Source: an uncultured Gammaproteobacteria bacterium (GTDB lineage Bacteria; Patescibacteriota; Microgenomatia; UBA8517; JACQJR01). From it: a stretch of DNA of 64,000 bases. Positions 5,007 through 58,133 of the stretch are shown one piece after another. The position numbers were made by a program, and so were the translations under genes. The first letter of the stretch is position 1. Each line of letters starts with the position of its first letter. The stretch is taken from assembly GCA_964442455.1 (NCBI GenBank), contig CAYTZB010000001.1, positions 85,910-149,909 of the forward strand, in the 5' to 3' direction. The notes beneath the pieces are model-generated. The model was not told the DNA's origin. It did no database searches and was given only the letters and a program-made list of their open reading frames with translations.

Positions 5007-5735
5007 ATGAAATCGTATCTGCCCATTTTTTTATTGGTTGGAGGGTTGCTTGTTATTTCGTTGGTAGGGTTTGCAGTATTTAACCTTCGCTCCAAAGAAA
5101 CTCCAGTTGAGAATGAGGAAGAAATTGTTCCTTCTGTTCCCGCCCCCTTTATAATACTAACTCCTGATAGTGCTGGTCGTGAGCTAACACTCAATGTTTC
5201 AAAGATTGACCAAACTGCTGCGAGCCTTGAATATGAGCTTGTCTATAATACTCAAGCAAATGTCCTCCAAGGGGTGCCAGGAACGGTTGATGTAACCGGA
5301 CAAGCGAGTATTTCTCGTCAATTGACGTTAGGAACCTGCTCATCTGGTGTGTGTCGATATGATAAGGGAGTAAAAGACATCACGCTCACCATTCGTCTTC
5401 GCAATAAAAGTGGAAAACTGCTTAATAAGTTTAGTAGTGGAGTTTCCCTTTCAACGAAAGAAAAGAAGCTTTCAGCAACCGACGGAAAGTTTACGCTTAC
5501 ACTAGATAAAACACCTACGGGATATTATGTCGTTACTCAAACAGGTAGCGCTCCAAGTGGCGCTCCTGGAGAGTTGACCAGCGGTCCTTATGGAGTCTTT
5601 GCCAGCGGAGGCACGTTGCAAAGCGGCACAGTTACACTTACGGGAGTAAAAATTTATCTGTGGGATGGAAAGGCATGGCAAGAACTCAGTTCTGGGAAGA
5701 CAAAGACGTTAGGAGTGTTTATTGCTACACAATAG
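5007..5735 (+). CDS. Hypothetical membrane-anchored/secreted protein
   Basis: 242-aa ORF with an N-terminal hydrophobic helix (LPIFLLVGGLLVISLVGFAVF). No recognisable catalytic motif. Confidence 0.5.
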   Translation: MKSYLPIFLLVGGLLVISLVGFAVFNLRSKETPVENEEEIVPSVPAPFIILTPDSAGRELTLNVSKIDQTAASLEYELVYNTQANVLQGVPGTVDVTGQASISRQLTLGTCSSGVCRYDKGVKDITLTIRLRNKSGKLLNKFSSGVSLSTKEKKLSATDGKFTLTLDKTPTGYYVVTQTGSAPSGAPGELTSGPYGVFASGGTLQSGTVTLTGVKIYLWDGKAWQELSSGKTKTLGVFIATQ

Positions 5736-6546
5736 GTCTTGGTGCTGGTGGTCTTGCGACGGCTTCAAATCCTTTTACCCAACAACCTTGTGGGTCTTCT
5801 TGTTTTCCGCAGTAACTATAGAGAGTAAGTAATTCCTGTATAAATTTATCAAGTTTAAGACCCTTAGTTAAGAGACCTGTCTTATTATCGTAGATAATTA
5901 CTTTTTCTATTGTTTCCCTCCATGCTTGTGCCTCAGTGAGGGCAAATATATCTTTTCCATCCATAGAGAGATAGTCTCCAAATGAAATTCCCTGAGCGCG
6001 AGCGTTTTCCGCTTCGCGTTCCAAAAGTTGCCATTGCCGATACGAAGCAAAAAGATGTAGTCCCAGAGCTTCTGGTGATCTCGAACTTATCAGATTTTCA
6101 TTGGTAGTTAAGGAATATTCCCATGACTCCTCTGTCGGGAACTGCACGCCACCCCACAGTGGGCGAGGAAGTGGGGGGTCAAATGTCTGGCCGTTAAATG
6201 CGTTTTCCGTAAAATAAAGATTGAGTTTCCAGCCAAGGGTGGGTATAGTATTTCCTGCTTCTTGTAGTTTTGGGTGCGGCGACTCCATGAGTGTAAGGAT
6301 TGCGATACCCAATTGGGTATTAATTTCTCGCACTGCACTATCTATCCGCCATTCAGCGGGAGCAGGAGAGAAAAATTGAGGAAGTTTTTCTGCAAGGGTA
6401 TACAGTGTGCGAGTGTCTTGAAACTCGTGTTGTGCTGAAAATTTTTCAAATACGGCTCTTATTCCAATAGTCCCCGCAAGGAACGTTAGTCCTGCAAAGA
6501 GAACACGCCATCTTGTGTCAATTTGCCCAAGCCGTTCTCTATTCAT
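5725..6546 (-). CDS. Hypothetical protein with N-terminal TM anchor
   Basis: 273-aa ORF, convergent with the previous gene and overlapping it by 11 nt. It has an N-terminal hydrophobic segment. No family recognised. Confidence 0.45.
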   Translation of the reverse strand: MNRERLGQIDTRWRVLFAGLTFLAGTIGIRAVFEKFSAQHEFQDTRTLYTLAEKLPQFFSPAPAEWRIDSAVREINTQLGIAILTLMESPHPKLQEAGNTIPTLGWKLNLYFTENAFNGQTFDPPLPRPLWGGVQFPTEESWEYSLTTNENLISSRSPEALGLHLFASYRQWQLLEREAENARAQGISFGDYLSMDGKDIFALTEAQAWRETIEKVIIYDNKTGLLTKGLKLDKFIQELLTLYSYCGKQEDPQGCWVKGFEAVARPPAPRPIV

Positions 6547-6672: not shown

Positions 6673-6701
6673 TTGACAAGTGCGTGAAAACCCTTCAAAA
6701 T
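6673..6701 (+). promoter_or_regulatory. Candidate dcw (Pmra-like) promoter
   Basis: TTGACA (6673-6678), a 17-nt spacer, then CAAAAT (6696-6701), directly upstream of mraZ. Confidence 0.55.
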
Positions 6702-6723
6702 GGAGAAAAGTGGGGAAAAGTGG
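6697..6723 (+). promoter_or_regulatory. Three MraZ-box-like direct repeats (AAAATGG / AAAGTGG / AAAGTGG) at exact 10-bp spacing
   Basis: The repeats lie at 6697-6703, 6707-6713 and 6717-6723. Published MraZ operators are triple direct repeats containing GTGG/TGGG with about 10-bp phasing, located at the mraZ promoter. Confidence 0.55.
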
Positions 6724-6762
6724 AGGACGTCAAACGTCCTAAAGGAAATCTGCCCGTATGAA

Positions 6763-7209
6763 GTGCTCATTGGATATTACCTTACCAAACTGGATGAGAA
6801 AGGACGGCTGGCAGTTCCCAAGCGGTTCAGGGGAGAGCTTGGGGAAAAGCTTGTCGCTGCCCGCTGGTATGAGGGCTGTATCCTTTTGGTGGATAGGAAA
6901 GTATGGCAAAGTTTGGTCGCTCGTCTTACCGGGGGTGAACTTGCCACCCTCTCTGCTCGGGATACTGACAGGTTTTTGCTTGCTGGCTCTTTTGAAATTG
7001 ACTTGGACAAACAAGGCAGGTTTGTAGTGCCTGAGTCATTACGAGGGTATGCACAACTCGCCCAAGAGGTTGTATGTGCAGCATTAGGAGATAGGGTAGA
7101 ACTATGGAGCAAGAGTGCATGGGAAGAACGGGAGAAAGTGTTGTTGAAAGAATCAGGTGAGAAGATAGAAAAGTTGTATAGGGAGAGAAAGGGAAATGCG
7201 CGAACATGA
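6763..7209 (+). CDS. mraZ: Transcriptional regulator MraZ
   Basis: Both duplicated SpoVT/AbrB-like halves are present: LDEKGRLAVPKRFR and LDKQGRFVVPESLR. A GTG start at 6763 gives the canonical N-terminus (M)LIGYYLTKLDEKGRL. The ORF-track ATG 6700 lies inside the operator/-10 region. Confidence 0.85.
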   Translation: MLIGYYLTKLDEKGRLAVPKRFRGELGEKLVAARWYEGCILLVDRKVWQSLVARLTGGELATLSARDTDRFLLAGSFEIDLDKQGRFVVPESLRGYAQLAQEVVCAALGDRVELWSKSAWEEREKVLLKESGEKIEKLYRERKGNART

Positions 7210-8101
7210 ACCGGTTTTACTTAATGAAGTTCTAGAGTTTTTGAACGTTAAAAATGGTGGTCGCTACATTGATGCGACAGTCGGTGCTGGAGGACATGCA
7301 GGAGAGATTTGTCGTAGAGGTGGTAAAGTTTTGGGAATGGATTGGGACAAGGAGTCATTGGCTATAGCGAAACGACATCTTAAGGACGTCTGCCCTGATG
7401 TCGTTTTAGTACATGCAAATTTCGGCAAGATTGCCGATGTTGCCAAAGTTCATGGGTTTGTCCCGGTAGACGGAGTGCTCTTTGATCTCGGTATTTCGAG
7501 TATGCAATTGAAAGACGAGCGGCGTGGCTTTTCTTTTCAAACTGATGCACCGCTTGACATGCGGATGAATAAAAAAGAGCAAGGTGTAACAGCCGCTGAT
7601 CTGCTAAACGGTTTGCGAGAGGACCAGTTGTATGAATTATTTATTCAAACGACTCAAAAAAACGTTGCTCGGGCAGTTGCTCGTGCTGTTGTTCGCTCCC
7701 GTAGAAATAAGAGAGTTGAGCGGACGAGCGAATTAGTTAATTTAGTGAGTCAAGTTTATTCCGCCAGGAACAAGCTTGCTTACAGAGGGAGAGCAAGAAA
7801 GATTAGCCCGGCAACGACAATTTTTCTGGCACTCCGGATGGCAGTTAATTCGGAGCTTGAAAATTTAGAAAAAGGACTTGAGGGAGCTCTCAATGTACTG
7901 GGTTTTGGGGGAAAACTTGTTGTTATCAGTTTTCATTCCGGAGAGGATAGAATTGTTAAAAATTTCTTAAGAGAAAAACAAAAAAGTGGCATGTTACACA
8001 TTTTGACCAAAAAGCCGCTAACGCCGCAAGACGCGGAAATACAAAAGAATCCAAGAGCCCGGAGCGCAAAACTGCGCACAGGAGAAAAATTAAGAATATG
8101 A
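7196..8101 (+). CDS. rsmH: 16S rRNA (cytosine1402-N4)-methyltransferase RsmH
   Basis: HEPVLLNEVLEFL, YIDATVGAGGHA, DLGISSMQL and ISFHSGEDRIVK motifs are present, in the conserved position after mraZ. Confidence 0.9.
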   Translation: MREHEPVLLNEVLEFLNVKNGGRYIDATVGAGGHAGEICRRGGKVLGMDWDKESLAIAKRHLKDVCPDVVLVHANFGKIADVAKVHGFVPVDGVLFDLGISSMQLKDERRGFSFQTDAPLDMRMNKKEQGVTAADLLNGLREDQLYELFIQTTQKNVARAVARAVVRSRRNKRVERTSELVNLVSQVYSARNKLAYRGRARKISPATTIFLALRMAVNSELENLEKGLEGALNVLGFGGKLVVISFHSGEDRIVKNFLREKQKSGMLHILTKKPLTPQDAEIQKNPRARSAKLRTGEKLRI

Positions 8102-8394
8102 TGAAATTGCCTACCATTACTCAATATTCAGCCTTGCTTGTTGTTGTTCTTTTAGTCGTACAAATTCTGGTCAGCGTGATCTTTTCAAGTGCAGGTGTGA
8201 CATTAGGCGAGCTTGAAACAAAGGTCTCACAGTTGTCATTTGAAAATCAATTACTGGAAGAGAGGGTGGCGGCATCTGGGTCACTCCAAGAGATTGCGAA
8301 GCGAGCAACTGAGCTTGGATTTATATCTTCAGCCACCGCGTATCTGCCCCCAGAGACACCTCACGCACAGATACTTACCACGCAGAGCCGTTAA
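8098..8394 (+). CDS. ftsL: FtsL-like cell division protein
   Basis: 98 aa with one TM helix followed by a coiled-coil-like segment (LGELETKVSQLSFENQLLEERV). It occupies the conserved slot between rsmH and ftsI and overlaps both neighbours (ATGA-type junctions). Confidence 0.5.
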   Translation: MMKLPTITQYSALLVVVLLVVQILVSVIFSSAGVTLGELETKVSQLSFENQLLEERVAASGSLQEIAKRATELGFISSATAYLPPETPHAQILTTQSR

Positions 8395-8395
8395 T

Positions 8396-10126
8396 ATGGA
8401 TAATAGAGCTCGTTTTGTGGGAATACTGCTTGGCGCAGGCACACTTTTACTGATAGGACGACTTTTCTTTTGGCAAGTTGTGAAGGGAGCACAACTTGCT
8501 CAATATGCACGTTCTCAATACCTTCGCGCTGAAGAAATTGCAACACAGCGAGGTTCAATACTTGCCAACGATGGGGGGGTACTCGCGACCTCTCAAATTA
8601 CATGGCAAGTGTGGGCAGATCCGACAAAACTCACCAAAACGCCCGTTGATATTGCCCGTCTTTTGGCGCCTATTTTTTCCCGAGAACTACTCCCGGAAGA
8701 TGCTTCGGGAGAAGCTGAGCTTTCTTTTATTGAGAGAAAAGAGGAGCAACTGGAGAAAGCACTTGCCAAGCGTGATATACGGTGGGTGCTTCTTGCCGAT
8801 AAGTTGTCAAATGAGGGAAAACGCGTAGTTGAGAATTTGTCACTTCCCGGAGTGGGATGGACACTGGGGGAAAAACGGTTTTATCCCGAGGGAAGCGCGG
8901 CCGCGCACTTATTGGGATTTGTGGGAAAAGATGAGAGCGGAGAGCGGGGATATTTTGGACTAGAAGGGTTTTATGATATAACGCTTAAAGGTGTGAAAGG
9001 GATACAGAGAGCGGAGCGTGATGTGCGGGGAAATCCTATCCCTTTTGGGTTGTTTAATGAGATTGCCCCAACACAGGGACTTGATATCGTGACGTTTATT
9101 GACCGAACGGTACAGTATATTATAGAGAGGCATTTAGCTTCTGGTATTGAAAAATATGGGGCAAAGGGAGGCAGTGTGGTAGTGATGAAGCCGACAGGAG
9201 AGATACTTGCAAGTGCAACTTTTCCCTCATATGACCACACGCGGTACAGCGAAGCCGACTCATCTCTGTTTAAAAATCCGGCGGTTGCCGACTCATTTGA
9301 GCCGGGGTCTGTATTTAAGATTCTTGTGATGGCAGCGGCACTGGATAGCGGAGCGGTCAAGCCGGATATGCGATGTGACGCATGCAGCGGGCCAGTGACG
9401 ATTGGAAAATATCAAATTCATACGTGGGATGACAAGTATTACCCCGAGACAAGTATGACAGATATAATCAAACATTCAGATAACATTGGGATGGTTTTTG
9501 TAGGTGGGAAATTGGGGGGAGATAAAATGTGGGATTATTTGAATAGGTTTGGGATTGGGCGATTAACCGGTATCGATCTTCAAGAAGAATCAACGTCAGA
9601 GCTTAGGCCAAAGGGTAGGTGGGGTGATATTGATGTGGCAACCGCGTCATTCGGGCAGGGGGTTGCGGTGACCCCCGCTCAGTTACTCCGAGCGGTTGCG
9701 GCGATTGCCAATCATGGTGTTCTTCCGGTACCCCGGGTTGTAGATAAGATGAGAGAAGGTACATGGGAAGAGGAGACTGAGGTAAAAGACGAAGGAAGAG
9801 TAATTAGCGAGGATGCAGCGGTGAAAATTACAGAGATGATGATTGAAGCTGTACGCGCAGGTGAGGCAAAATGGGCAGCACCAAAGGGATTTTTGATTGC
9901 GGGAAAAACCGGAACCGCACAAATTCCTATTGCCGGACACTACGATCCTGAAAAAACAATTGCATCATTTATTGGTTTTGCGCCTGCGGACTCGCCAGAA
10001 TTTGTCATGCTCGTCTCGCTTAGAGAGCCAACATCGTCTCCTTTTGGTTCCGAAACAGCCGCGCCTCTTTGGTTTTCTATTGCCCGTGACCTCTTTCCAT
10101 ATTTCGGCATTGGTCCATCTCAATAA
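8396..10126 (+). CDS. ftsI: Peptidoglycan D,D-transpeptidase (class B PBP, FtsI)
   Basis: TM anchor present. PBP dimerisation region, then the transpeptidase motifs SVFK (SxxK), HSDN (SxN-like) and KTGTA (KTG). ATG 8396 is preferred; the ORF-track start 8213 overlaps ftsL. Confidence 0.85.
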   Translation: MDNRARFVGILLGAGTLLLIGRLFFWQVVKGAQLAQYARSQYLRAEEIATQRGSILANDGGVLATSQITWQVWADPTKLTKTPVDIARLLAPIFSRELLPEDASGEAELSFIERKEEQLEKALAKRDIRWVLLADKLSNEGKRVVENLSLPGVGWTLGEKRFYPEGSAAAHLLGFVGKDESGERGYFGLEGFYDITLKGVKGIQRAERDVRGNPIPFGLFNEIAPTQGLDIVTFIDRTVQYIIERHLASGIEKYGAKGGSVVVMKPTGEILASATFPSYDHTRYSEADSSLFKNPAVADSFEPGSVFKILVMAAALDSGAVKPDMRCDACSGPVTIGKYQIHTWDDKYYPETSMTDIIKHSDNIGMVFVGGKLGGDKMWDYLNRFGIGRLTGIDLQEESTSELRPKGRWGDIDVATASFGQGVAVTPAQLLRAVAAIANHGVLPVPRVVDKMREGTWEEETEVKDEGRVISEDAAVKITEMMIEAVRAGEAKWAAPKGFLIAGKTGTAQIPIAGHYDPEKTIASFIGFAPADSPEFVMLVSLREPTSSPFGSETAAPLWFSIARDLFPYFGIGPSQ

Positions 10127-10268
10127 ATATCTTGACAACAGCCGAAAATATGTAATACCCTTTACGTAGGACATAAAACCTGTTTCAAAACTTGCGCATC
10201 AGCTTTACTGGTTTGCTTAAGGTAGGTTTTGTGAAGCCGTTTTGAAACGACTTCATAGTAATTAATTT

Positions 10269-10646
10269 ATGTCAGCAGAACTGCCCCGCTGGACGTTTGA
10301 TGCTGCTGGGAGACCCCAAGACTTAATTCATAATGGAAAAATTGTGCTTCAAGACGGAAGACCAGTATTTGCGGAGAATAATTGTATTACTTTCGAGGAA
10401 GGCAAAAGTGGTGCACTTTTAGTAATCCGTGAACCAGAGAGTTCCGTATCATCATCTCTTTACATATTACGGCCAGAAGTAGGTAACTTTAGACTTATTC
10501 AAAATAGTATTGAGAGGAGGTTAAGTCTCGTGCCTTTGAGCGGGCAAATCGATGGAAACGGAAGGTCATTCACAATTCCCGACATGAGTTCAGTTTTGAG
10601 ACAAATAAGACTTCGTTTAGAAAAGCTTCCAAGAACCTCGCAATAA
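10269..10646 (+). CDS. Hypothetical protein (orphan, 125 aa)
   Basis: ATG-initiated ORF in an AT-rich insert between ftsI and murE. No recognisable motif. Confidence 0.45.
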   Translation: MSAELPRWTFDAAGRPQDLIHNGKIVLQDGRPVFAENNCITFEEGKSGALLVIREPESSVSSSLYILRPEVGNFRLIQNSIERRLSLVPLSGQIDGNGRSFTIPDMSSVLRQIRLRLEKLPRTSQ

Positions 10647-10733
10647 CTTCTTTTGAACTTAATTGTGGTATAATTCTTTGTTAAATCGTATGAATTGTTA
10701 AACAATTCTTAGCCTTGAATTTTTGAAACTTAG

Positions 10734-10818
10734 ATGTGTAGGCACCTTCGAGGTGTACGCAGGTATGGTACTATTACCACACTACAGAATATGGCAGTTG
10801 TTTAGTAATCTAATGATT
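10734..10818 (+). repeat. Copy A of a duplicated intergenic module (41-nt identical core 10743-10783, two hairpins, 23-codon micro-ORF)
   Basis: CACCTTCGAGGTGTACGCAGGTATGGTACTATTACCACACT is identical to 11741-11781. TATGG(C/T)AGTTGT and CTAATGAT are also shared downstream. Confidence 0.8.
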
Positions 10819-10842
10819 TAAATCACTGGATCAGTATGTTGG

Positions 10843-10870
10843 TTGACAAACGGATTACATTTGCTATAGT
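10843..10870 (+). promoter_or_regulatory. Promoter of the 272-aa orphan ORF
   Basis: TTGACA (10843-10848), a 16-nt spacer, then TG-n-TATAGT (10865-10870), followed by TAAGCTAAATTTATG. The architecture matches 11844-11871. Confidence 0.6.
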
Positions 10871-10882
10871 TAAGCTAAATTT

Positions 10883-11701
10883 ATGGCAGCTTCAATTGCT
10901 GAACGATTGGGGGTGACTTTAGAGCGTTTAGGTAAGGGGTTACAAGAAAGAGCAAGACCAAAAGAATCAACTTCTCCGGAACTTCTTCGTGATAAAGCAT
11001 TAGAATTATGGAGATTGACTGCTCCTGGACGCAAAGCTGATCCAAGCACCTCTGCTATTTCTTATTTCGTTTTCTCCTCTTCAGAAGGAGTTACTGCAGA
11101 CACTCAGGAAAAACAACTATTTGATGATTTATTAAAACCATATTGGCATGTCCATGATTATGATGGTTTTATGGTTATACTTTCAGTAAATCCGGATAAA
11201 CTTCCTAGTGTTTCATTTAAACTCTCCATTTTAGCTCCAGCTCCACCACAATTACCCTTTGAAGGTAAGTCTGCTGTTTTAGCATTTAGAGAATTTCCTC
11301 CAGATAGGAGTCGAAGGAGAGACTATCCTTATAATTTGCTTATTCAAGGAGAAAATAGAAATTTTTATTCTGATATATTGGATCAAGAAGTTACCGGTTT
11401 TGATCCTACTCAAGGATTACAATGGCAACAATTAGAAAAATACTCTGTTGATTATCAACCAAGAGGTGATATTGAATGGAGAAAAAAATTCACAAGCGAT
11501 GTTCTTGATCTCTTAATCGATATTATTAAAAAAATAGGATACGATGAAGTTGCTCAGGCTAGGATGGATCAATTTTGGAGGAGAAGTAGCATGATTCGGG
11601 GACGGTGGCTTGGTGAAGTTGAAAGTGAAAATCGGGAAGTAGATTATCGCCGACATTTTAATAATACTTCCTTGTCCCGCCGTAACAGGTTTAGTGTTTA
11701 A
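10883..11701 (+). CDS. Hypothetical protein (orphan, 272 aa)
   Basis: ATG-initiated ORF with its own promoter. A spot-counted 60-nt line (11161-11220) is about 30% G+C. No family recognised. Confidence 0.55.
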   Translation: MAASIAERLGVTLERLGKGLQERARPKESTSPELLRDKALELWRLTAPGRKADPSTSAISYFVFSSSEGVTADTQEKQLFDDLLKPYWHVHDYDGFMVILSVNPDKLPSVSFKLSILAPAPPQLPFEGKSAVLAFREFPPDRSRRRDYPYNLLIQGENRNFYSDILDQEVTGFDPTQGLQWQQLEKYSVDYQPRGDIEWRKKFTSDVLDLLIDIIKKIGYDEVAQARMDQFWRRSSMIRGRWLGEVESENREVDYRRHFNNTSLSRRNRFSV

Positions 11702-11728
11702 CTGTAATCGGTATTTTGAGGCTAATTA

Positions 11729-11816
11729 ATGGTGCAGACACACCTTCGAGGTGTACGCAGGTATGGTACTATTACCACACTCGGTGTATGGTAGTTGTAC
11801 AACGACTCTAATGATA
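11729..11816 (+). repeat. Copy B of the duplicated intergenic module (core 11741-11781, 21-codon micro-ORF preceded by GAGG)
   Basis: Same 41-nt core as copy A and the same downstream conserved blocks. Confidence 0.8.
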
Positions 11817-11843
11817 TGTATTATTAGAGCGATACCTTTTTTA

Positions 11844-11871
11844 TTGACAATTGAATCCTCTCTGATATAGT
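11844..11871 (+). promoter_or_regulatory. Promoter of the 183-aa orphan ORF
   Basis: TTGACA (11844-11849), a 16-nt spacer, then TG-n-TATAGT (11866-11871), followed by TAAGCTGAATTTAT. Confidence 0.6.
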
Positions 11872-11893
11872 TAAGCTGAATTTATAAGCTATT

Positions 11894-12445
11894 ATGACTG
11901 AATTAAGTCGCACCGACGGATTAGGAGAACCAGGTGAGCATGAAGCGTTTGAAGAATTAGATCCTCACAGAATTGCCCAACTTTTTGGAACAACAGCGAA
12001 ATTAACTTATTATGAAATTCGTTATGAGCTTGAAACAAATAAAGAAATTAAGAGAATTCCTGTGTGGGTGATTGATATTATAGAAAGGTCAAAATTAAGA
12101 CTTGTACAGCTATTCGTTGCACCAGAGATAAGACAAGTAGGTGTGGTTTCTAGTTTGCTTTTCAGCTCAAATTTACCACCCAACGTTGAGCCTGATCGGT
12201 ACGGTGAGACAAACCATACAGCCCGACTTGAGGGTGTGCAACAAGTTGAAGTTCGAAGATATCCTTTTTCCTCCCCATATACCAACGTAAGTTTTATTAT
12301 AGAAGACGAAAAAACAAAGTCAGTGCTACAAGTTGACTCTCGAGCAACATTCAGATTTGACTTTATGCAGAAAGAAGAATTAGGTAAGTATGCAATAGGT
12401 TTAGAAGAGATAAGGAACTTTTTCCGACGCGTTTCTCATTTTTGA
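11894..12445 (+). CDS. Hypothetical protein (orphan, 183 aa)
   Basis: ATG-initiated ORF. No recognisable motif. Confidence 0.55.
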   Translation: MTELSRTDGLGEPGEHEAFEELDPHRIAQLFGTTAKLTYYEIRYELETNKEIKRIPVWVIDIIERSKLRLVQLFVAPEIRQVGVVSSLLFSSNLPPNVEPDRYGETNHTARLEGVQQVEVRRYPFSSPYTNVSFIIEDEKTKSVLQVDSRATFRFDFMQKEELGKYAIGLEEIRNFFRRVSHF

Positions 12446-12455
12446 ACCTAAATCG

Positions 12456-12464
12456 TGGTATAAT
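12456..12464 (+). promoter_or_regulatory. Extended -10 promoter (TGgTATAAT) 7 nt upstream of the murE ATG (leaderless-type)
   Basis: TG at 12456-12457, TATAAT at 12459-12464, ATG at 12472. Confidence 0.5.
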
Positions 12465-12471
12465 TTACATA

Positions 12472-13818
12472 ATGGATGTGGTGAAGACGGTATTTGGGAA
12501 GAGTCGTTGGTATGGGCCGATCAGAAACTTCCAACACTTCGTAGAAGCAGTCTTCGCAGTTATTAAAAATGGATATCCTGCGCGAGATTTAACGGTTATT
12601 GGTGTGACAGGAACAGACGGAAAGACAACAACGTCGCACATTATCTCATCAATTCTTCAAGAAGCAGGAATTAAAACTGCGCTTATCTCAAGCGTCGGTG
12701 CATTTATTGGTGATGAGGAGGTCGATACAGGCTTCCATGTAACGACTCCTGATCCAAAATTACTTCAACCACTTCTCGTAAAGATTAAAGAGAAAGGAAT
12801 AACCCATGTTGTTATAGAAGCAACATCTCATGGACTTGACCAACACAGACTTCTTGGATGTAATTTTAAAGTGGGAGTTTTGACAAATATTACTCATGAA
12901 CATTTAGATTACCATCAGACGTTTGAAAGATATAGAGACGCTAAAGTAAAGTTGTTTCGCGGTGTTAAAACTGCTGTTTTAAATAGAGACGATGACTCAT
13001 TTTCCTACATAAAATCAAAAACAAATCCTGGTACTCGTGTCATTGCTTACAGCGTAAAACAAAATGCTACGTTATGGGCAGATAAAGTTTCATTTAATTG
13101 GAAGGGTATGGAATTTCGTGTGAGAGAAGGAAGATCAAGTATTACGCTTACAACAAAACTTATTGGTGAATATAATGTTTCAAATATACTCGCTGCTGTT
13201 GGAGTCGCGCGCGGAATTGGAATTTCATGGGAAGCGATTAAGGAAGGGGTCGAAAGGTTTGGAGGAATTCCAGGAAGGATGGAAAGAGTTGATGAAGGAC
13301 AAACGTTTGCCACCTTTATTGATTTTGCACATACACCAGCGGCTCTTGAGAGCGTATTGACACTTCTTAAGAAATTAAAAACTCGAGATAGTAAACTCAT
13401 CGTTGTATTTGGAGCAGCAGGAGAACGGGATGTTAGCAAGAGGGCTTTGATGGGTGAAATTGCCGCCCGTTTGGCTGATTTTACCGTGTTGACTGCCGAG
13501 GATCCGCGTACCGAGAATCTTAACAGGATTATTGATGATATTACACGGGGGATAAGGCAAAATGCTAAAGTGTGGGATGGTGTTGTGGATTGGAGAAAAG
13601 AAGGAAGCTGGTGTATTCGAGTTCCTGAGCGGGGTGAAGCGATTGCATTTGCCGCTCAAAAGTTGGCGAAAGGTGGGGATATTTTGGTGATTTGCGGAAA
13701 AGGCCATGAGAAATCAATGGCATTTGATCACACCGAATACCCATGGTCAGACCAGGAAGCAGCTAGGGTAGCGCTCAAAGGGAAAATTAAAAGAGTAAAA
13801 AGAGGACAATTAACCTAA
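12472..13818 (+). CDS. murE: UDP-N-acetylmuramoyl-L-alanyl-D-glutamate--2,6-diaminopimelate (or L-lysine) ligase MurE
   Basis: Mur ligase P-loop VIGVTGTDGKTTT, central domain TNITHEHLDYH, and the C-terminal motif DFAHTP. Confidence 0.9.
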   Translation: MDVVKTVFGKSRWYGPIRNFQHFVEAVFAVIKNGYPARDLTVIGVTGTDGKTTTSHIISSILQEAGIKTALISSVGAFIGDEEVDTGFHVTTPDPKLLQPLLVKIKEKGITHVVIEATSHGLDQHRLLGCNFKVGVLTNITHEHLDYHQTFERYRDAKVKLFRGVKTAVLNRDDDSFSYIKSKTNPGTRVIAYSVKQNATLWADKVSFNWKGMEFRVREGRSSITLTTKLIGEYNVSNILAAVGVARGIGISWEAIKEGVERFGGIPGRMERVDEGQTFATFIDFAHTPAALESVLTLLKKLKTRDSKLIVVFGAAGERDVSKRALMGEIAARLADFTVLTAEDPRTENLNRIIDDITRGIRQNAKVWDGVVDWRKEGSWCIRVPERGEAIAFAAQKLAKGGDILVICGKGHEKSMAFDHTEYPWSDQEAARVALKGKIKRVKRGQLT

Positions 13819-13922
13819 TTGACCTAATTATTCTAATTTCTAAAGAATGTCTAATGACAATTTTAAGAATTTCATATTTGGGATTTCTTTAGGTTAATTA
13901 GAAATTAGTAATTAGAAATTTA
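13809..13922. repeat. Imperfect long palindrome built from phased CTAATT / AATTAG units (element E1)
   Basis: Left arm: TAACCTAATTGACCTAATTATTCTAATTTCTAAAGAA. Right arm: TTCTTTAGGTTAATTAGAAATTAGTAATTAGAAATT. It fills the murE-murC spacer and is homologous to 36451-36590. Confidence 0.7.
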
Positions 13923-13929
13923 AGTTTTT

Positions 13930-15354
13930 ATGGATATAAAAACTTTGAAACATATCCATTTCACCGGCATTAAGGGTGTCGGTATGACAGCGCTTGTCTT
14001 ATGTGCACAGGATTTGGGGATAAAGGTAACCGGTTCTGATGTTGCCGAGGTATTTGTGACGGATGAGACACTAGAAAAGCGTGGGATAAGATGGAATGTG
14101 GGATTTGGTGAAAAGAATTTAGACCCGAGGCCTGATTTAGTTATTACCACCGGTGCTCATGGTGGATTACGCAATCCTGAGGTAGTGGCAGCACAAAAAA
14201 TGGGTATCCGAGTGTTAACACACGCCCAGGCGCTGTATGAATTTACGAAGGGGAAAGAAGTTATCGCGGTATGCGGAGTAGGTGGTAAATCAACGACCTG
14301 CGCAATGATTGCAACGATTTTTGATGAAGCAGGACTTCATCCGTCGTTTGCTATAGGCGTGGGGGACATTCCATCACTTGGTGCTCCGGGAAGATACGAT
14401 AAGAAGGGGAACGTGTTTATTGTTGAGGCGGACGAATATGCAATTTCTCCGGGGGTTGATAACCGGCCGCGGTTTAGTCTACTTTCTCCGCGAGTCATTG
14501 TTGTTACTAATATTGAGCATGACCATCCTGACATTTATAAAACTTTAGAGGATACGAAAAGAGCGTTTCGAGAATTTTTTGAAAAATTACCCAGCGATGG
14601 TTTGCTTGTTGCAAATGGAAACAGTGAGAATGTCCGCACGATAACTAAAAATCTCAAAGTAAGAGTTATAATGTACGATATTGAAAATTTAGAACTTTCT
14701 ATTCCTGGTAAGTTTAATCAGGCAAATGCGACTGCAGCTTCTGCAGTTGCAAAATTTTATAACAGCATTCAAGAATACTCCGCAATTTATTGCGGAGATG
14801 AATTGAACGCTGATATGTCATCCTCCTTTAGAGGGAAACCCAGCTCGTTAGAGCGGGGAGGATGTCATAAAATCCCAGAAGAAATAATTAAAAGAGGACT
14901 CCAAAATTTTAAAGGTGTTAGACGTCGGTTTGAAAAAATGGGTGAAATAAATGGAGTATTGTTTTATGATGATTACGCTCATACCCCAAATGAAATAAGG
15001 GCTACACTAGGAGCCGCTCGTGAATGGTTTAATAACCAACGCATAGTTGCAGTTTTTCAACCTCATACCTATTCTCGAACAAAAGCGTTACTTAGCGAAT
15101 TCGCGAAGAGTTTTAGTGATTCGGACATAGTTGGAGTTATGGATATTTATGCTTCCGCTCGGGAGAATGATACTTTAGGTATGTCGGGAGAGCTACTTGC
15201 AAAAGAAATTTCTCGATACCACAAAAATGTTGCCTATACGGGTAATCATGAACGAACTATTGAGTGGATTAAAAAAAATAGTAAAAGCGGTGATATAGTT
15301 TTGACTTTAGGGGCAGGCGATATTTTTTTATTGCACAGGATAATTAATTCATAA
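13930..15354 (+). CDS. murC: UDP-N-acetylmuramate--L-alanine ligase MurC (carries an in-frame ~38-codon repeat-element insertion)
   Basis: HFTGIKGVGMTAL, GVGGKSTT, NIEHDHPD, FKGVRRRFE and YDDYAHTP motifs are present. The segment NSIQEYSAIYCGDELNADMSSSFRGKPSSLERGGCHK is encoded by the repeat at 14757-14870. Confidence 0.9.
   Translation: MDIKTLKHIHFTGIKGVGMTALVLCAQDLGIKVTGSDVAEVFVTDETLEKRGIRWNVGFGEKNLDPRPDLVITTGAHGGLRNPEVVAAQKMGIRVLTHAQALYEFTKGKEVIAVCGVGGKSTTCAMIATIFDEAGLHPSFAIGVGDIPSLGAPGRYDKKGNVFIVEADEYAISPGVDNRPRFSLLSPRVIVVTNIEHDHPDIYKTLEDTKRAFREFFEKLPSDGLLVANGNSENVRTITKNLKVRVIMYDIENLELSIPGKFNQANATAASAVAKFYNSIQEYSAIYCGDELNADMSSSFRGKPSSLERGGCHKIPEEIIKRGLQNFKGVRRRFEKMGEINGVLFYDDYAHTPNEIRATLGAAREWFNNQRIVAVFQPHTYSRTKALLSEFAKSFSDSDIVGVMDIYASARENDTLGMSGELLAKEISRYHKNVAYTGNHERTIEWIKKNSKSGDIVLTLGAGDIFLLHRIINS
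14757..14870 (+). mobile_element. MITE-like hairpin element, long form, copy 1 (inside murC, in frame)
   Basis: 114 bp, homologous to 58021-58133 and to 25471-25538. Termini TTATAACA...TGTCATAA form inverted repeats. There are two internal 8-bp hairpins. Confidence 0.7.
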
Positions 15355-15361
15355 TATCGAT

Positions 15362-15379
15362 ATATTCATATATGAATAT
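15362..15379. promoter_or_regulatory. 18-bp perfect palindrome ATATTCATATATGAATAT overlapping the murB start codon
   Basis: The 16-bp core TATTCATATATGAATA recurs identically at 52856-52871. Confidence 0.4.
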
Positions 15380-16313
15380 CCGCATCACAGAAAACATTTT
15401 ATTCTCTTCCCTTACGACTCTCAGAATTGGTGGGCCCATAAAGTATTTTGCACCTGCAACTACAGAAGAGGAACTATTTCATTTAATTGAAATGGCAAAA
15501 GGGAAGAGCTTGCATTACTTGATTATAGGTGGCGGAAGTAATCTACTCGTATCAGGCGATGGATTTGATGGATTAGTTATTCAAAATCTTATTCAATCAA
15601 TTGAAAAGAAAGACGATGTTTTGGAGGTTGGTGCTGGTACAGATTTGCAAGCCCTTGTATGGTATGCAAATAAAAGTGGAATTTCTGGTTTTGAAAAACT
15701 GGCGGGTATTCCGGGAAGCGTGGGGGGGGCGGTGTATGGGAATGCAGGAGCATATGGACAGGCTATTTCTGACAATGTTTTGTGGATTGAAGTAGGAGAA
15801 CCAAAAGATGGAACAACGAAAAAACTAAAAAGTGAAGAATGTGGATTTGGTTATAGAAAGAGCAAGTTTAAAGAAACAAAAGATTTGATACTACGGATGG
15901 GATTTTCAATTACACCTGGTGACAGTAAGGAGCTTCTCAAAACTTCTCAAGAAATTGTGAAGATGCGAATGCAAAAATATCCTCCGGGTATTGCCTGTCC
16001 GGGAAGCTTTTTTAAGAATGTAGAAGTAGATAAACTTGATAAAGGCATTCTTTCCCGCATTCCAAAAGATAAAATTATGTTTGGGAAAATTCCCGCAGGT
16101 TGGTTGCTTGAAGAAGTTGGGGCAAAGGGAGCAAGAAAAAATGGTGTAGAGATTGCACCGTGGCATGGAAATTTATTTGTGAACCAAGGTGGGGGAAGAG
16201 CAGAAGACTTTTTATATTTAGCAAAAGAATATAGGCAAAAGGTTAAAGAACGGTTTGGTATCGAACTTGAGCCAGAAGTACAGTTGGTTGGATTTAAAGA
16301 GAATATGTTTTAA
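15372..16313 (+). CDS. murB: UDP-N-acetylenolpyruvoylglucosamine reductase MurB
   Basis: FAD-binding pattern LTTLRIGGP...LIIGGGSNLLV and a C-terminal MurB domain. Confidence 0.9.
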   Translation: MNIRITENILFSSLTTLRIGGPIKYFAPATTEEELFHLIEMAKGKSLHYLIIGGGSNLLVSGDGFDGLVIQNLIQSIEKKDDVLEVGAGTDLQALVWYANKSGISGFEKLAGIPGSVGGAVYGNAGAYGQAISDNVLWIEVGEPKDGTTKKLKSEECGFGYRKSKFKETKDLILRMGFSITPGDSKELLKTSQEIVKMRMQKYPPGIACPGSFFKNVEVDKLDKGILSRIPKDKIMFGKIPAGWLLEEVGAKGARKNGVEIAPWHGNLFVNQGGGRAEDFLYLAKEYRQKVKERFGIELEPEVQLVGFKENMF

Positions 16314-25346: not shown

Positions 25347-25470
25347 ATTCGAAGCACGAAGCTCGAAACAATATCTAAATTCAAATACCCAATGTTCAAA
25401 AAGGTTTAGAATTTTGAATTTTACTTATTTGAAATTTGTTTAGGATTTCGAATTTAGAATTTCGGATTTA
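25347..25470. repeat. Imperfect long palindrome of TTCGAA / TCTAAATT-type phased units (element E3)
   Basis: Left arm: AAATTCGAAGCACGAAGCTCGAAA...TCTAAATTCAAATA. Right arm: TATTTGAAATTTGTTTAGGATTTCGAATTTAGAATTTCGGATTT. Confidence 0.6.
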
Positions 25471-25538
25471 TTATAACAGCATTCAAGAAAACTCCCGACT
25501 TTTAGTCGGGTGATGAATTGAACGCTGATATGTCATAA
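25471..25538 (+). mobile_element. MITE-like hairpin element, short form, copy 2 (abuts the ftsA start codon)
   Basis: 68 bp, TTATAACAGC...GATATGTCATAA. It equals the long form minus the segment between two ATGTCAT direct repeats. Confidence 0.7.
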
Positions 25539-36436: not shown

Positions 36437-36450
36437 AGGCCACAAGTGAA

Positions 36451-36590
36451 ATTAACCTAATTAACCTAATTGCTCTAATTGATCTAAATTTTGAAGATTT
36501 GTAGTTTAAAAATTGGGATTTATTTAGAAATTAGAATAATTAGAAATAAGCAGAGCTTGTTTCTCGCAAGCTCGAAATTAGAAATTTTTA
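36451..36590. repeat. Imperfect long palindrome of CTAATT / AATTAG phased units (element E4, homolog of E1) plus an internal 7-bp hairpin
   Basis: Left arm: ATTAACCTAATTAACCTAATTGCTCTAATTGATCTAAATT. Right arm: TTTAGAAATTAGAATAATTAGAAAT...GAAATTAGAAATT. The hairpin is GAGCTTG-TTTCTCG-CAAGCTC. Confidence 0.65.
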
Positions 36591-36592
36591 AA

Positions 36593-37720
36593 ATGGCTCT
36601 TGTTAAACCAGATACCACGCGGTTGGCAAAAATTCGAGTAATTGGGGTTGGTGGCGGTGGGGGGAACGCAATTAACTCCATGATCTCCCAAGATAAGATT
36701 TCCGGAGTTGAGTTCATTGCCGTTAATACAGATGCACAAGTCCTTCTCTCAAACCTCGCGTCCACAAAAGTTCAAGTTGGTGAAAAATTGACGCGCGGGT
36801 TGGGTGTTGGGGGAAATCATGAGCTTGGGAAACAAGCAGCGGAGGAATCAAGAGAAAAAATTAAAGAACTGCTTCTTGACTCTGATATGGTATTTATTAC
36901 TGCAGGTATGGGTGGAGGGACTGGAACTGGGGCTGCACCGATTATTGCCGAGGTCGCGCGTGAGGTGGGGGCGTTGACGATTGCTATTGTTACCAAACCT
37001 TTTGCCTTTGAAGGTGCACGGCGCGCAGTAGTAGGAGAAGAGGGAATTGAAGCGCTTAAAGGAAAGGTTGATACGCTCATTATCATTCCCAATCAGCGGT
37101 TGATGGATGTCATTGACCGGAAGGTGACGCTACTTGATGCGTTCCGCCTGGCCGACTCGGTGCTCTCGCAAGGTGTACAAGGAATTTCTGAAATTATCAC
37201 CCAACCGGGACTTATTAACGTTGACTTTGCGGATGTAAAAGCAATTATGACCCAAGCAGGCTCAGCGCTTCTTGGCATTGGTACGGGAGTTGGTGAAGCG
37301 CGGGCACAAATGGCAGCACGGGCAGCAATTTCCTCTCCTCTTCTTGACTTATCAATCGAGGGTGCAAAGGGAGTGTTGTTTAATATCTCGGGTGGCCCGG
37401 ACTTGACTATGGCGGAGGTTGATGAGGCAGCGCGAATTATCGCCGAGCATTCCGATGCAGACGCAAACATTATTTTTGGTGCATCAATTGACCAACGGTT
37501 GTCCGATCAAGTACGTATTACAGTTATTGCGACCGGTTTTGATGAGGCGCGGGCACGACTTGCGCAAATAACCCAAACCGCAGTCAAACCTCAACCAACC
37601 CTTGAGTCGACAGAAGAGACTCGTGGGGAAAACGAGGAGGAAGAAAAGGCAGAAGAACCCAAGGATGATGAGTTTGGAGAACGCTTCGAAATACCAGCGT
37701 TTCTAAGACAGGGCCGCTAG
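36593..37720 (+). CDS. ftsZ: Cell division GTPase FtsZ
   Basis: GVGGGGGNAIN, tubulin signature GGGTGTGAAPIIA, NTDAQ, and the C-terminal conserved peptide FEIPAFLRQGR. ATG 36593 is preferred; the ORF-track TTG 36491 extension runs through the palindromic repeat. Confidence 0.92.
   Translation: MALVKPDTTRLAKIRVIGVGGGGGNAINSMISQDKISGVEFIAVNTDAQVLLSNLASTKVQVGEKLTRGLGVGGNHELGKQAAEESREKIKELLLDSDMVFITAGMGGGTGTGAAPIIAEVAREVGALTIAIVTKPFAFEGARRAVVGEEGIEALKGKVDTLIIIPNQRLMDVIDRKVTLLDAFRLADSVLSQGVQGISEIITQPGLINVDFADVKAIMTQAGSALLGIGTGVGEARAQMAARAAISSPLLDLSIEGAKGVLFNISGGPDLTMAEVDEAARIIAEHSDADANIIFGASIDQRLSDQVRITVIATGFDEARARLAQITQTAVKPQPTLESTEETRGENEEEEKAEEPKDDEFGERFEIPAFLRQGR
37669..37707 (+). repeat. Direct repeat copy 1 (last 39 nt of the ftsZ body before its final 13 nt)
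   Basis: TGAGTTTGGAGAACGCTTCGAAATACCAGCGTTTCTAAG is identical to 40512-40550. Confidence 0.9.
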
Positions 37721-37781
37721 CTTCTAGGATAAAACCTATAATATTTCTTCTACTCTTTAGTTGATATGGTATACTATCGGC

Positions 37782-40514: not shown

Positions 40515-40563
40515 GTTTGGAGAACGCTTCGAAATACCAGCGTTTCTAAGGCAAGGAAGATGA
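40512..40563 (+). pseudogene. Orphan duplicate of the ftsZ 3' end (encodes EFGERFEIPAFLRQGR-stop)
   Basis: 39 nt are identical to 37669-37707. The next 13 nt differ from the ftsZ tail at 7 positions, yet both tails translate to RQGR-stop. It is not in frame with the helicase ORF. Confidence 0.8.
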
Positions 40564-58007: not shown

Positions 58008-58020
58008 AGCAGTGAGTTTA

Positions 58021-58133
58021 TTATAACAGCATTCAAGAAAACTCCCGACTTTCAGTCGGGAGATGAATTGAACGCTGATATGTCATCCTCCTTTAGAGGA
58101 AACCCCGCTTTTCAAAGCGGGGAGGATGTCATA
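58021..58133 (+). mobile_element. MITE-like hairpin element, long form, copy 3 (intergenic)
   Basis: TTATAACAGC...GGATGTCATA, with hairpins CTCCCGAC-TTTCA-GTCGGGAG and CCCCGCTT-TTCA-AAGCGGGG. Confidence 0.75.

What the first reader, a model, noticed from the sequence alone, without database searches (positions are those of the whole stretch)
10127..12471. AT-rich three-ORF orphan island splits ftsI from murE and is bracketed by near-duplicate copies of the murE promoter region
ftsI and murE are normally adjacent. Here 2.3 kb lies between them and holds three ORFs (125, 272 and 183 aa) with no recognisable motifs, each with its own promoter. My spot count of one 60-nt line (11161-11220) gives about 30% G+C, against about 48% for lines in ftsA and ftsZ. 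The sequence TTTTGAACTTAATTGTGGTATAATT (10651-10675) recurs as TTTTGAACCTAAATCGTGGTATAATT (12440-12465), the leaderless murE promoter. So about 1.8 kb (both repeat modules plus ORF272 and ORF183) is flanked by an imperfect direct repeat of about 26 bp, as expected if a cassette was inserted at, or duplicated, the murE promoter. The function of the three proteins is unknown. Placement inside the most conserved operon of the cell suggests hitch-hiking on dcw transcription or a role in division or the envelope.
Basis: partly seen in the sequence, partly recalled or inferred. Interest (0 to 1): 0.55.

Follow-up and report, generated by a model that had tools for sequence, protein, structure and literature searches.

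The report
Variable gene islet between ftsI and murE
In this small groundwater-type CPR (Microgenomates) bacterium, the gap between the cell-division genes ftsI and murE holds a small strain-variable set of three lineage-specific genes of unknown function, which is an ordinary kind of genome variation in an unusual place.

Summary
2,345 bp lie between ftsI and murE and hold three ORFs. ORF272 and ORF183 each sit behind a copy of a ~145-nt promoter module that contains a 41-nt exact repeat. Public contigs from separate sequencing runs confirm every junction.

The interpretation needs correction:
- AT-richness is mild: 37.5% against 42.1% G+C, the 5.5th percentile. Codon usage is native.
The rest is only weakly beyond chance.
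- The copy at murE is the ancestral, leaderless murE promoter, which relatives also have.
- The 1.8 kb is not one recent insertion. The sister species (FtsI 89%, MurE 85%) has ORF125 (86%, dN/dS 0.29) and, behind the same promoter module, a 25%-identical homologue of ORF272. It lacks ORF183 and carries other genes there.

More distant relatives have ftsI and murE adjacent in 9 cases. In 5 cases unrelated genes interrupt them.

Best reading: a recombination-prone accessory islet in a permissive gap of the dcw cluster. Function is unknown and interest is modest.

The parts
8396..10126 (+). ftsI (class B PBP), upstream border of the islet
   Evidence: Pfam PBP_dimer and Transpeptidase. 100% match to P0006; 89-90% to the sister species.
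10132..10158 (+). Promoter-like site for ORF125 (TTGACA, 15 nt, TG-TAATAC), conserved in the sister species
   Evidence: Read from the sequence. The same stretch is 91% identical in L011 and L019. Not listed by the consensus scan, so it is weak.
10177..10253 (+). About 78-nt insertion in the ORF125 leader, bounded by the 10-bp inverted repeat GTTTCAAAAC / GTTTTGAAAC and absent from the sister species
   Evidence: blastn homology to L010-L012 and L019 breaks at 10176 and resumes at 10254. Sequences compared. No other copy in the window.
10269..10646 (+). ORF125: small basic soluble protein, conserved within the species group
   Evidence: 86% identical homologues P0126-P0128 directly after ftsI in the relatives. 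dN/dS 0.29 and dS 0.27 against L019, like the flanking genes. No family hit. pI 9.1, no membrane segment.
10651..10675 (+). P*(1): promoter-like near-copy of the murE promoter (TTTTGAAC, 10 nt, TGGTATAAT)
   Evidence: (D5). Homology to the sister species stops at the ORF125 stop codon, so this copy is absent there.
10692..10708 (.). Perfect 8+1+8 palindrome GAATTGTT-A-AACAATTC just downstream of P*(1)
   Evidence: Read from the sequence. It folds as a weak hairpin that is no better than shuffled sequence.
10743..10884 (+). Promoter module, copy 1: 41-nt exact repeat (10743-10783), palindrome TCTAATGAT-N4-ATCACTGGA (10809-10830), TTGACA-16-TATAGT (10843-10870), and a near-leaderless start TAAGCTAAATTTATG
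   Evidence: The part from 10799 onward is 78% identical to the region upstream of ORF287 in L019.
10883..11701 (+). ORF272: soluble protein, deeply divergent allele of ORF287 in the sister species
   Evidence: Only itself found among 5.8 billion proteins by word-seeded search. 25% identity to L019 ORF287, E = 6e-14, at the same position behind the same promoter. pS 0.70, which is saturated, against 0.13-0.46 in the flanking genes. Lowest GC3 of 51 ORFs (0.213) but native codon preference. AlphaFold2 single-sequence model unusable, pLDDT 34.5.
11741..11885 (+). Promoter module, copy 2: 41-nt exact repeat (11741-11781), palindrome TCTAATGAT-N4-ATTATTAGA (11807-11828), TTGACA-16-TATAGT (11844-11871)
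   Evidence: It folds more stably than shuffles (z = -3.8), on both strands.
11894..12445 (+). ORF183: member of a small family, predicted alpha + beta-sandwich resembling CdiI of K. pneumoniae 342
12440..12465 (+). P*(2): native murE promoter (TTTTGAACC, TGGTATAAT) overlapping the ORF183 stop codon. The murE ATG lies 7 nt after the -10, so the mRNA is leaderless.
   Evidence: TTGAACCTAAA..TGGTATAATTTA is conserved upstream of murE in L019. An extended -10 directly before the ATG is also seen in L015 and L016.
12472..13818 (+). murE, downstream border of the islet
   Evidence: Pfam Mur_ligase_M and Mur_ligase_C. 85% identical in L019 and L002.

Best explanation
The 2.3 kb is a lineage-specific, recombination-prone accessory-gene islet in a permissive gap of the dcw cluster of a Microgenomates (CPR) bacterium.

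Why the gap is permissive (inferred): in this clade murE carries its own extended -10 promoter and a leaderless start directly before its ATG. Genes can therefore be added between ftsI and murE without cutting off murE and the downstream mur genes.

The islet has two layers:
1. ORF125 is an older, vertically inherited gene of the species group and is under purifying selection.
2. ORF272 and ORF183 are cassette genes, each behind a copy of a ~145-nt promoter module. The module holds a 41-nt element, a 22-bp palindrome about 12 nt upstream of the -35 (probably a binding site for a dimeric regulator), TTGACA-16-TATAGT, and a near-leaderless start. The two genes are therefore probably co-regulated.

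ORF272 and the sister species' ORF287 share the module but are only 25% identical, and their synonymous sites are saturated, while the flanking genes are 85-90% identical. This means the coding part was exchanged for a distant family member by recombination, not diverged in place. ORF183 is an additional cassette, present only in this lineage, placed behind a duplicated module.

The promoter-like copy after ORF125 is most simply a by-product of such a rearrangement at the murE promoter.

Shown: the anatomy, the synteny, the selection on ORF125 and the divergence pattern.
Inferred: promoter activity, the regulator site, recombination as the mechanism, and any function.
For: - Structure and repeats.
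- Independent contigs confirm all junctions.
- Sister species L019 has ftsI, ORF124, a HAD hydrolase (-), ORF216 (-), the module, ORF287 and murE, with a 3,128-nt gap. Module homology is 78-89%. ORF272 against ORF287 gives E = 6e-14 at 25% identity.
- dN/dS: ORF125 0.29, ftsI 0.21, murE 0.14. pS is 0.70 for ORF272/287 against 0.13-0.46 in the flanks.
- The murE promoter is conserved in L015, L016 and L019.
- Survey of relatives with FtsI identity of 43% or more: adjacent (under 100 nt) in 9. Interrupted by unrelated genes in L016, L019, L030, L035 and L038, for example YecM, DUF192 plus an extra Mur ligase, and orphans.
- Contigs of three assemblies of the sister species end exactly at the ORF125 stop or begin inside murE. 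This is what strain heterogeneity at this spot would produce.
- Native codon usage.
- Other duplicated intergenic modules occur elsewhere in the window, so module duplication is a habit of this genome.
Against: - Only one sister lineage gives a full-length comparison, so the order of gains, losses and replacements cannot be reconstructed.
- No recombinase or mobility gene is nearby, and no recombination junction was shown directly.
- Identity between the two module copies is uneven: 41/41, then about 60-65%, then 76%. This needs either selection on the 41-mer or gene conversion, and neither was tested.
- The dS estimate at 27% amino-acid identity is crude.
- Promoter and operator function rest on consensus matches only. 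No transcription data were available.
- The function of all three proteins remains unknown.
Confidence: 0.6

Rival explanations
1. A single 1.8-kb cassette (both modules, ORF272 and ORF183) was inserted at the murE promoter, or arose by duplicating it. It is flanked by a ~26-bp imperfect direct repeat that acts as a target duplication or attachment-site pair.
For: - The repeat exists, and its non-generic part (13 of 20 nt) is reached by only 0.2% of random 20-mers.
- The copy after ORF125 also resembles the L019 murE promoter (CTTCTT..GAAC.TAA..TGGTATAATT).
- ORF183 and module copy 2 are absent from L019.
- GC3 of ORF272 is the lowest in the window.
Against: - L019 has the module and an ORF272 homologue directly upstream of murE but no promoter copy after ORF125. 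The 1.8 kb therefore did not arrive as one unit in this lineage.
- 9-11 of the 25 nt are generic extended -10 sequence. After correction the significance is about 0.02.
- There is no integrase or transposase and no match in phage or viral collections.
- Codon usage is native.
Confidence: 0.15
2. ORF272 and ORF183 form a conflict module, either toxin/effector plus immunity or an orphan immunity gene. ORF183 would neutralise a toxin, as CdiI neutralises the CdiA-CT tRNase. The fast turnover of ORF272 would reflect an arms race.
For: - That CdiI is described as one helix followed by nine strands (PMC9086364), like the model.
- The gene order, larger variable gene then small gene, fits a toxin-immunity pair, and both share one regulatory module.
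- Presence is strain-specific.
Against: - Sequence identity is 7%, with no HMM link.
- The model rests on 8 sequences and has pLDDT 76. Beta-sandwiches are common folds.
- ORF272 matches no toxin family and could not be modelled.
- The two genes do not travel together. L019 has the ORF272 homologue without ORF183. ORF183 homologues in L020-L022 lie next to a Mur ligase, a response regulator, and an XerD-like and a SurA-like gene, never next to an ORF272 relative.
- Each gene has its own promoter, where a toxin-immunity pair is normally co-transcribed.
- No PADLOC hit.
Confidence: 0.13
3. The three proteins are lineage-specific accessory factors of cell division or peptidoglycan synthesis, and their position in the dcw cluster reflects function.
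For: - All three lie on the same strand inside the dcw cluster.
- ORF125 is conserved directly after ftsI in the sister species under purifying selection.
- One ORF183 homologue (P0130) lies next to a Mur-ligase paralogue.
Against: - Nine of the relatives have ftsI and murE adjacent with nothing in between.
- ORF272 and ORF183 vary even between sister species.
- There are no membrane segments, and no secretion signal is apparent from the N-terminal sequences (read by eye; no predictor was run).
- The other ORF183 homologues are not near dcw genes.
- Other lineages carry unrelated genes at the same junction.
Confidence: 0.1
4. Assembly artefact: the order of segments around the 41-nt repeats is chimeric.
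For: Short-read k-mer assemblies break at the 41-nt repeat. L001, L003 and L004 end inside it.
Against: L006 spans 10259-11222 and L009 spans 11297-12501, so each crosses one module copy at 100% identity. They come from different sequencing runs. L008 links ORF183 to murE.
Confidence: 0.02

Closest known systems
Hypervariable accessory-gene islets ('flexible genomic islets') flanked by conserved core genes and exchanged by homologous recombination. The comparison rests on general knowledge of bacterial population genomics.
   Same: - Conserved flanks (ftsI with ORF125 on one side, murE on the other).
- Content differs between close relatives.
- Allelic cassettes are far more divergent than the flanks.
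- No mobility genes, and native composition.
   Different: - Very small, at 2-3 kb.
- It lies inside the dcw cluster, which is normally among the most stable gene orders.
- The cassettes carry a shared, duplicated promoter module.
- Only two lineages are available, so population-level exchange is inferred and not observed.
CdiI immunity protein of Klebsiella pneumoniae 342 (PDB 6CP9; Gucinski et al. 2019, as cited in PMC9086364)
   Different: - 7% identity and no sequence-profile link.
- ORF183 is 183 aa against 115, with an N-terminal extension and a disordered loop.
- No CdiA/CdiB or any recognisable toxin is adjacent.
- The host is a CPR bacterium, not a proteobacterium. CDI is described for Gram-negative bacteria (PMC9086364, abstract).
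Integron gene-cassette arrays
   Same: Tandem, unrelated small ORFs separated by a repeated ~150-nt element.
   Different: - The repeated element lies upstream of each ORF and is a promoter.
- Integron cassettes are typically promoterless and end in an attC site.
- No integron integrase is present.
- No attC-like imperfect inverted repeat with the conserved core sites was seen.

Membership tests
Mobile genomic island / integrative cassette | Encodes or is next to a mobility gene (integrase, transposase, recombinase) | tested here: not met
   The three ORFs have no Pfam, NCBIfam or PHROGs hits. The neighbours are ftsI and murE.
Mobile genomic island / integrative cassette | Flanking direct repeats beyond chance (target duplication or att core) | tested here: inconclusive
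   The 25/26-nt repeat is 80% identical. Nine nt are the generic TGGTATAAT. The remainder matches 13/20, p about 0.002 uncorrected and about 0.02 corrected.
Mobile genomic island / integrative cassette | Foreign base composition or codon usage | tested here: not met
   G+C is at the 5.5th percentile of same-size windows. The codon-preference score is as high as or higher than that of native genes.
Mobile genomic island / integrative cassette | Whole unit absent from close relatives (empty site) | tested here: not met
   The sister species has ORF125, the promoter module and an ORF272 homologue. Only ORF183 and module copy 2 are missing.
Integron cassette array | Promoterless cassettes ending in attC sites, with an intI integrase nearby | tested here: not met
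   Each ORF is preceded by an 11/12 sigma-70 consensus promoter. No tyrosine recombinase lies in or next to the islet. No dedicated attC model was run.
CdiI (Kp342-type) immunity protein | Same fold | tested here: met
CdiI (Kp342-type) immunity protein | Detectable sequence homology | tested here: not met
   7% identity in the structural alignment. A profile of the family finds nothing in PDB sequences or Pfam.
CdiI (Kp342-type) immunity protein | Encoded immediately downstream of its cognate toxin domain | tested here: not met
   ORF272 has no toxin-family hit. ORF183 homologues have unrelated upstream neighbours. The ORF272 homologue in L019 has no ORF183 partner.
CdiI (Kp342-type) immunity protein | Binds and neutralises a toxin | not testable with these tools
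   Needs co-expression and binding assays.
Core dcw-cluster gene | Conserved at this position across the clade | tested here: not met
   ftsI and murE are adjacent in 9 relatives. Other lineages hold unrelated genes at the junction. ORF125 is conserved only in the sister species.
Known structured RNA (Rfam) for the 41-nt element or module | Match to a curated covariance model | tested here: not met
   No match at gathering score in the window, and none at E <= 5 in 10100-12500.

The most novel reading that the evidence does not exclude
ORF272 and ORF183, under their shared palindrome-controlled promoter module, could be a previously undescribed effector/immunity-type conflict system of CPR bacteria. 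ORF183 would found a CdiI-like immunity family outside the Proteobacteria. The islet would be a swap site where such cassettes are exchanged between strains, possibly regulated by the conserved small basic protein ORF125.
Probability: 0.1. Interest if true: 0.6.

Novelty: new member of a known kind. Interest (0 to 1): 0.3.

Why it matters
It shows that the dcw cluster, usually treated as a fixed gene order, has a tolerated insertion point in Microgenomates. The likely reason is that murE has its own leaderless promoter. Strain-level gene turnover happens there.

For CPR biology it supplies three things:
- two small uncharacterised protein families, of which the ORF183 family has a usable structural lead;
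- a conserved promoter/operator module that could be tested;
- a concrete example of cassette replacement between sister species.

It does not reveal a new kind of system. If the immunity-like fold of ORF183 proved functional, it would point to inter-bacterial conflict genes in episymbiotic CPR bacteria, which are poorly known.

Tried and rejected
1. Family searches. Pfam, PHROGs, PADLOC, NCBIfam and PDB sequence searches gave nothing for the three ORFs or for profiles of the ORF183 and ORF272 families.
2. The three ORFs are not related to each other.
3. The unrelated 185-aa ORF at the same junction in L016 is not a homologue of any of them.
4. The 41-nt element was not found in JGI metagenome contigs, nor in IMG/VR with a relaxed pattern. 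There is no Rfam match.
5. I considered that the module travels with ORF183-family genes. By eye, the upstream regions of the homologues in L020 and L021 looked similar to the 41-mer. Local alignment scores were no better than shuffles, p 0.13-0.35, so I dropped the idea.
6. I considered the third hairpin of the module as an intrinsic terminator. Only copy 2 has a T-run, and the scan lists no terminator there. The half-sites are conserved in sequence in all three copies, which fits a protein-binding palindrome better.
7. Phage or viral origin. No tblastn hit in 50,697 phage genomes for ORF272 or ORF183. No IMG/VR relative for the ORF272 family. No BFVD fold match for ORF183. ORF125 was not searched against phages.
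8. The AlphaFold2 single-sequence model of ORF272 was useless at pLDDT 34.5.
9. The genome-contig scan with MurE returned only a 2.7-kb contig that starts inside murE.
10. The afdb50 fold library was unavailable.
11. A diversity-generating retroelement was considered because a bAvd-like gene sits in the dcw cluster of L015. I rejected it. The repeat copies are upstream promoters, not a template/variable pair in a coding 3' end, and there is no reverse transcriptase in the islet.
Full report
**What is there.** The window comes from a CPR bacterium of the Microgenomates/Woesebacteria type. The FtsI homologues that carry a source name are called Candidatus Microgenomates or Woesebacteria. The dcw cluster reads as follows:

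| Feature | Coordinates |
|---|---|
| mraZ | 6700-7209 |
| rsmH | 7196-8101 |
| ftsL-like ORF | 8098-8394 |
| ftsI | 8396-10126 |
| ORF125 | 10269-10646 |
| ORF272 | 10883-11701 |
| ORF183 | 11894-12445 |
| murE | 12472-13818 |
| murC | 13930-15354 |
| murB | 15372-16313 |

The three ORFs are on the cluster's strand. They have no membrane segments and are unrelated to one another. They hit nothing in Pfam, PHROGs, PADLOC, NCBIfam or PDB sequences. At 37.5% G+C, open frames of 272 and 183 codons are far too long to occur by chance. This last point is my own estimate from base composition, not a tool result.

**Repeats.** A larger repeat is more striking. A module of about 145 nt precedes both ORF272 and ORF183. 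It contains four parts:
- a 41-nt exact repeat (10743-10783 = 11741-11781), found nowhere else in the window against 0 expected;
- a 22-bp palindrome of the form TCTAATGAT-N4-ATCATTAGA (10809-10830 and 11807-11828), with 2 matches against 0.04 expected;
- an 11/12 consensus promoter, TTGACA-16-TATAGT, with a TG extension;
- the leader TAAGCTNAATTTAT, which puts the start codon 5-16 nt from the expected transcript start.

Identity along the module is uneven: 41/41, then about 60-65%, then 76%.

**Not an artefact.** Eight contigs assembled independently from five sequencing runs match the window at 100%. L006 crosses module copy 1. L009 crosses copy 2 and the murE promoter. L008 links ORF183 to murE. 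L003, L004, L005 and L007 link ftsI to ORF125.

**Composition.** The islet is 37.5% G+C against 42.1% for the window. That is the 5.5th percentile of same-size windows, and two other regions are lower. murE, murC and murB are 38.6-41.5%. ORF272 has the lowest GC3 of 51 ORFs (0.213). Its codon choice nonetheless follows the genome's own preference more strongly than average. Composition therefore does not mark the islet as foreign.

**The flanking repeat.** TGGTATAAT occurs six times in the window against 0.49 expected. In at least one other case (18252) it sits about 6 nt before an ATG, so it is this organism's generic extended -10 for leaderless genes. The 20 nt upstream of it in the two copies match 13/20. 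0.2% of random window 20-mers do as well, and the other extended -10 sites score 7-10. The similarity is thus more than consensus, but only marginally so after correction.

The copy at murE is ancestral. L019 has TTGAACCTAAA..TGGTATAATTTA before murE, and L015 and L016 have an extended -10 directly before the murE ATG.

**Relatives.**
- More distant relatives L013 (GCA_016204995.1) and L015, at 60-62% FtsI identity, have murE 12-37 nt after ftsI.
- L016, at 65%, has one unrelated 185-aa ORF in between.
- The sister species (FtsI 89-90%, MurE 85%) has a homologue of ORF125 at 86% directly after ftsI. DNA homology to the window stops exactly at its stop codon.
- The 36-kb contig L019 shows the whole sister region: ftsI, ORF124, a HAD hydrolase (-), ORF216 (-), ORF287 and murE, with a gap of 3,128 nt.
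- ORF287 is a homologue of ORF272, at 25% identity and E = 6e-14. It is preceded by the same palindrome, promoter and leader, at 78-89% identity.
- L019 gives no tblastn hit to ORF183 at E <= 10, no second module copy turned up in the repeat and blastn comparisons, and homology ends at the ORF125 stop, so there is no promoter copy after ORF125.

A survey of 80 JGI metagenome loci with FtsI relatives adds to this. Counting all relatives with FtsI identity of 43% or more:

| State of the ftsI-murE junction | Loci |
|---|---|
| Adjacent (under 100 nt), 9 relatives | L013, L015, L024, L025, L026, L027, L031, L033, L036 |
| Interrupted, 5 relatives | L016, L019, L030, L035, L038 |
| ftsI followed by other dcw genes, 3 relatives | L023, L028, L029 |

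The interrupting genes are unrelated to each other: a YecM-like gene, a Mur-ligase paralogue plus DUF192, and orphans.

**Selection and divergence** (window against L019).

| Gene | dN/dS | dS | pS |
|---|---|---|---|
| ORF125 | 0.29 | 0.27 | 0.22 |
| ftsI | 0.21 | 0.30 | 0.25 |
| murE | 0.14 | 0.71 | 0.46 |
| ORF272 / ORF287 | (0.39, unreliable) | about 2.1 (saturated) | 0.70 |

ORF125 behaves like the neighbouring housekeeping genes, so it is a real, vertically inherited gene. For ORF272/ORF287, pN is 0.50 and synonymous sites are saturated. Faster protein evolution alone would not saturate synonymous sites. I infer that the coding region was replaced by a distant member of the same family while the promoter module and flanks stayed. 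Contigs of the sister species in three assemblies end at the ORF125 stop or begin inside murE. That is what strain heterogeneity at this spot would produce, but this reading is an inference.

**ORF183.** An exhaustive HMMER search of 1.84 billion representatives finds seven relatives: one at 76% and the others at 30-36%. Three could be placed on contigs. One lies divergent from a Mur-ligase paralogue. One lies next to a response regulator. One lies between an XerD-like and a SurA-like gene. There is no conserved partner.

**ORF272** could not be modelled; the pLDDT was 34.5.

**Explanation.** I read the region as a small accessory islet at a permissive junction. murE has its own promoter, so insertions between ftsI and murE do not silence the mur genes. 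ORF125 is the old resident. ORF272-type and ORF183-type genes are cassettes behind a shared, probably regulated, promoter module, and they are exchanged or added by recombination. The promoter copy after ORF125 is best seen as a by-product of a rearrangement at the murE promoter.

Function is open. A conflict (immunity-like) role is a lead at about 0.1-0.15. A division or envelope role has no specific support.

**Verdict.** This is a real but ordinary kind of feature, a variable islet of lineage-specific genes, in a somewhat unexpected place. Interest 0.3. Novelty: new member of a known kind.

Noticed in passing
window 14752-14869 (inside murC), 25467-25536, 58017-58133: A repeat element of about 118 nt is present in three copies. 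One copy sits in frame inside murC and adds 36 residues (NSIQEYSAIYCGDELNADMSSSFRGKPSSLERGGCHK). These are absent from MurC of four relatives, including the 87%-identical sister species. The hairpin in the murC copy differs from the others by paired changes (CTCCGCAA..TTGCGGAG against CTCCCGAC..GTCGGGAG). On the minus strand the element carries TTGAATGCTGTTATAAT. It recalls the Rickettsia palindromic elements, which insert in frame into genes; that comparison is from memory.
   Followed up: partly
window 37669-37713 and 40512-40556: A 45-nt direct repeat (96% identical) brackets the low-G+C (37.4%) 917-aa ORF at 37761-40514. It is a cleaner case of a gene flanked by a direct repeat than the finding itself.
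   Followed up: no
window 10177-10253: An insertion of about 78 nt in the ORF125 leader is bounded by the 10-bp inverted repeat GTTTCAAAAC / GTTTTGAAAC and is absent from the sister species. The word TTTTGAAMC occurs 8 times in the window, 4 of them inside the islet.
   Followed up: partly
window 13808-13846 and 36450-36497: Short CTAATT-type repeats with a 9-nt period lie right after the murE stop and again upstream of the gene at 36491.
   Followed up: no
L019 14514-16808: In the sister species murC and murB are called as one 764-aa fusion protein. In the window they are separate genes.
   Followed up: no
L002 and L017 (assembly CAYIKF01, GCA_964363945.1): The record title of this MAG says 'uncultured Gammaproteobacteria bacterium', yet its contigs carry the Microgenomates-type dcw cluster (FtsI 90%, MurE 85% to the window). 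NCBI names its protein as from a 'Patescibacteria group bacterium'. The taxonomic label looks wrong.
   Followed up: no
window 5725-6546 (minus strand): Another 273-aa ORF without any family hit lies just upstream of mraZ. It is conserved at 87% in one assembly of the sister species (L010/L017). It gave no tblastn hit in L019, which has a 281-aa ORF at that position, and it is absent from the more distant L013.
   Followed up: no
L015 5047-5418: A relative carries a gene of the bAvd / 23S-rRNA-intervening-sequence protein family between murE and murC. This is another example of small insertions inside the dcw cluster of this clade.
   Followed up: no
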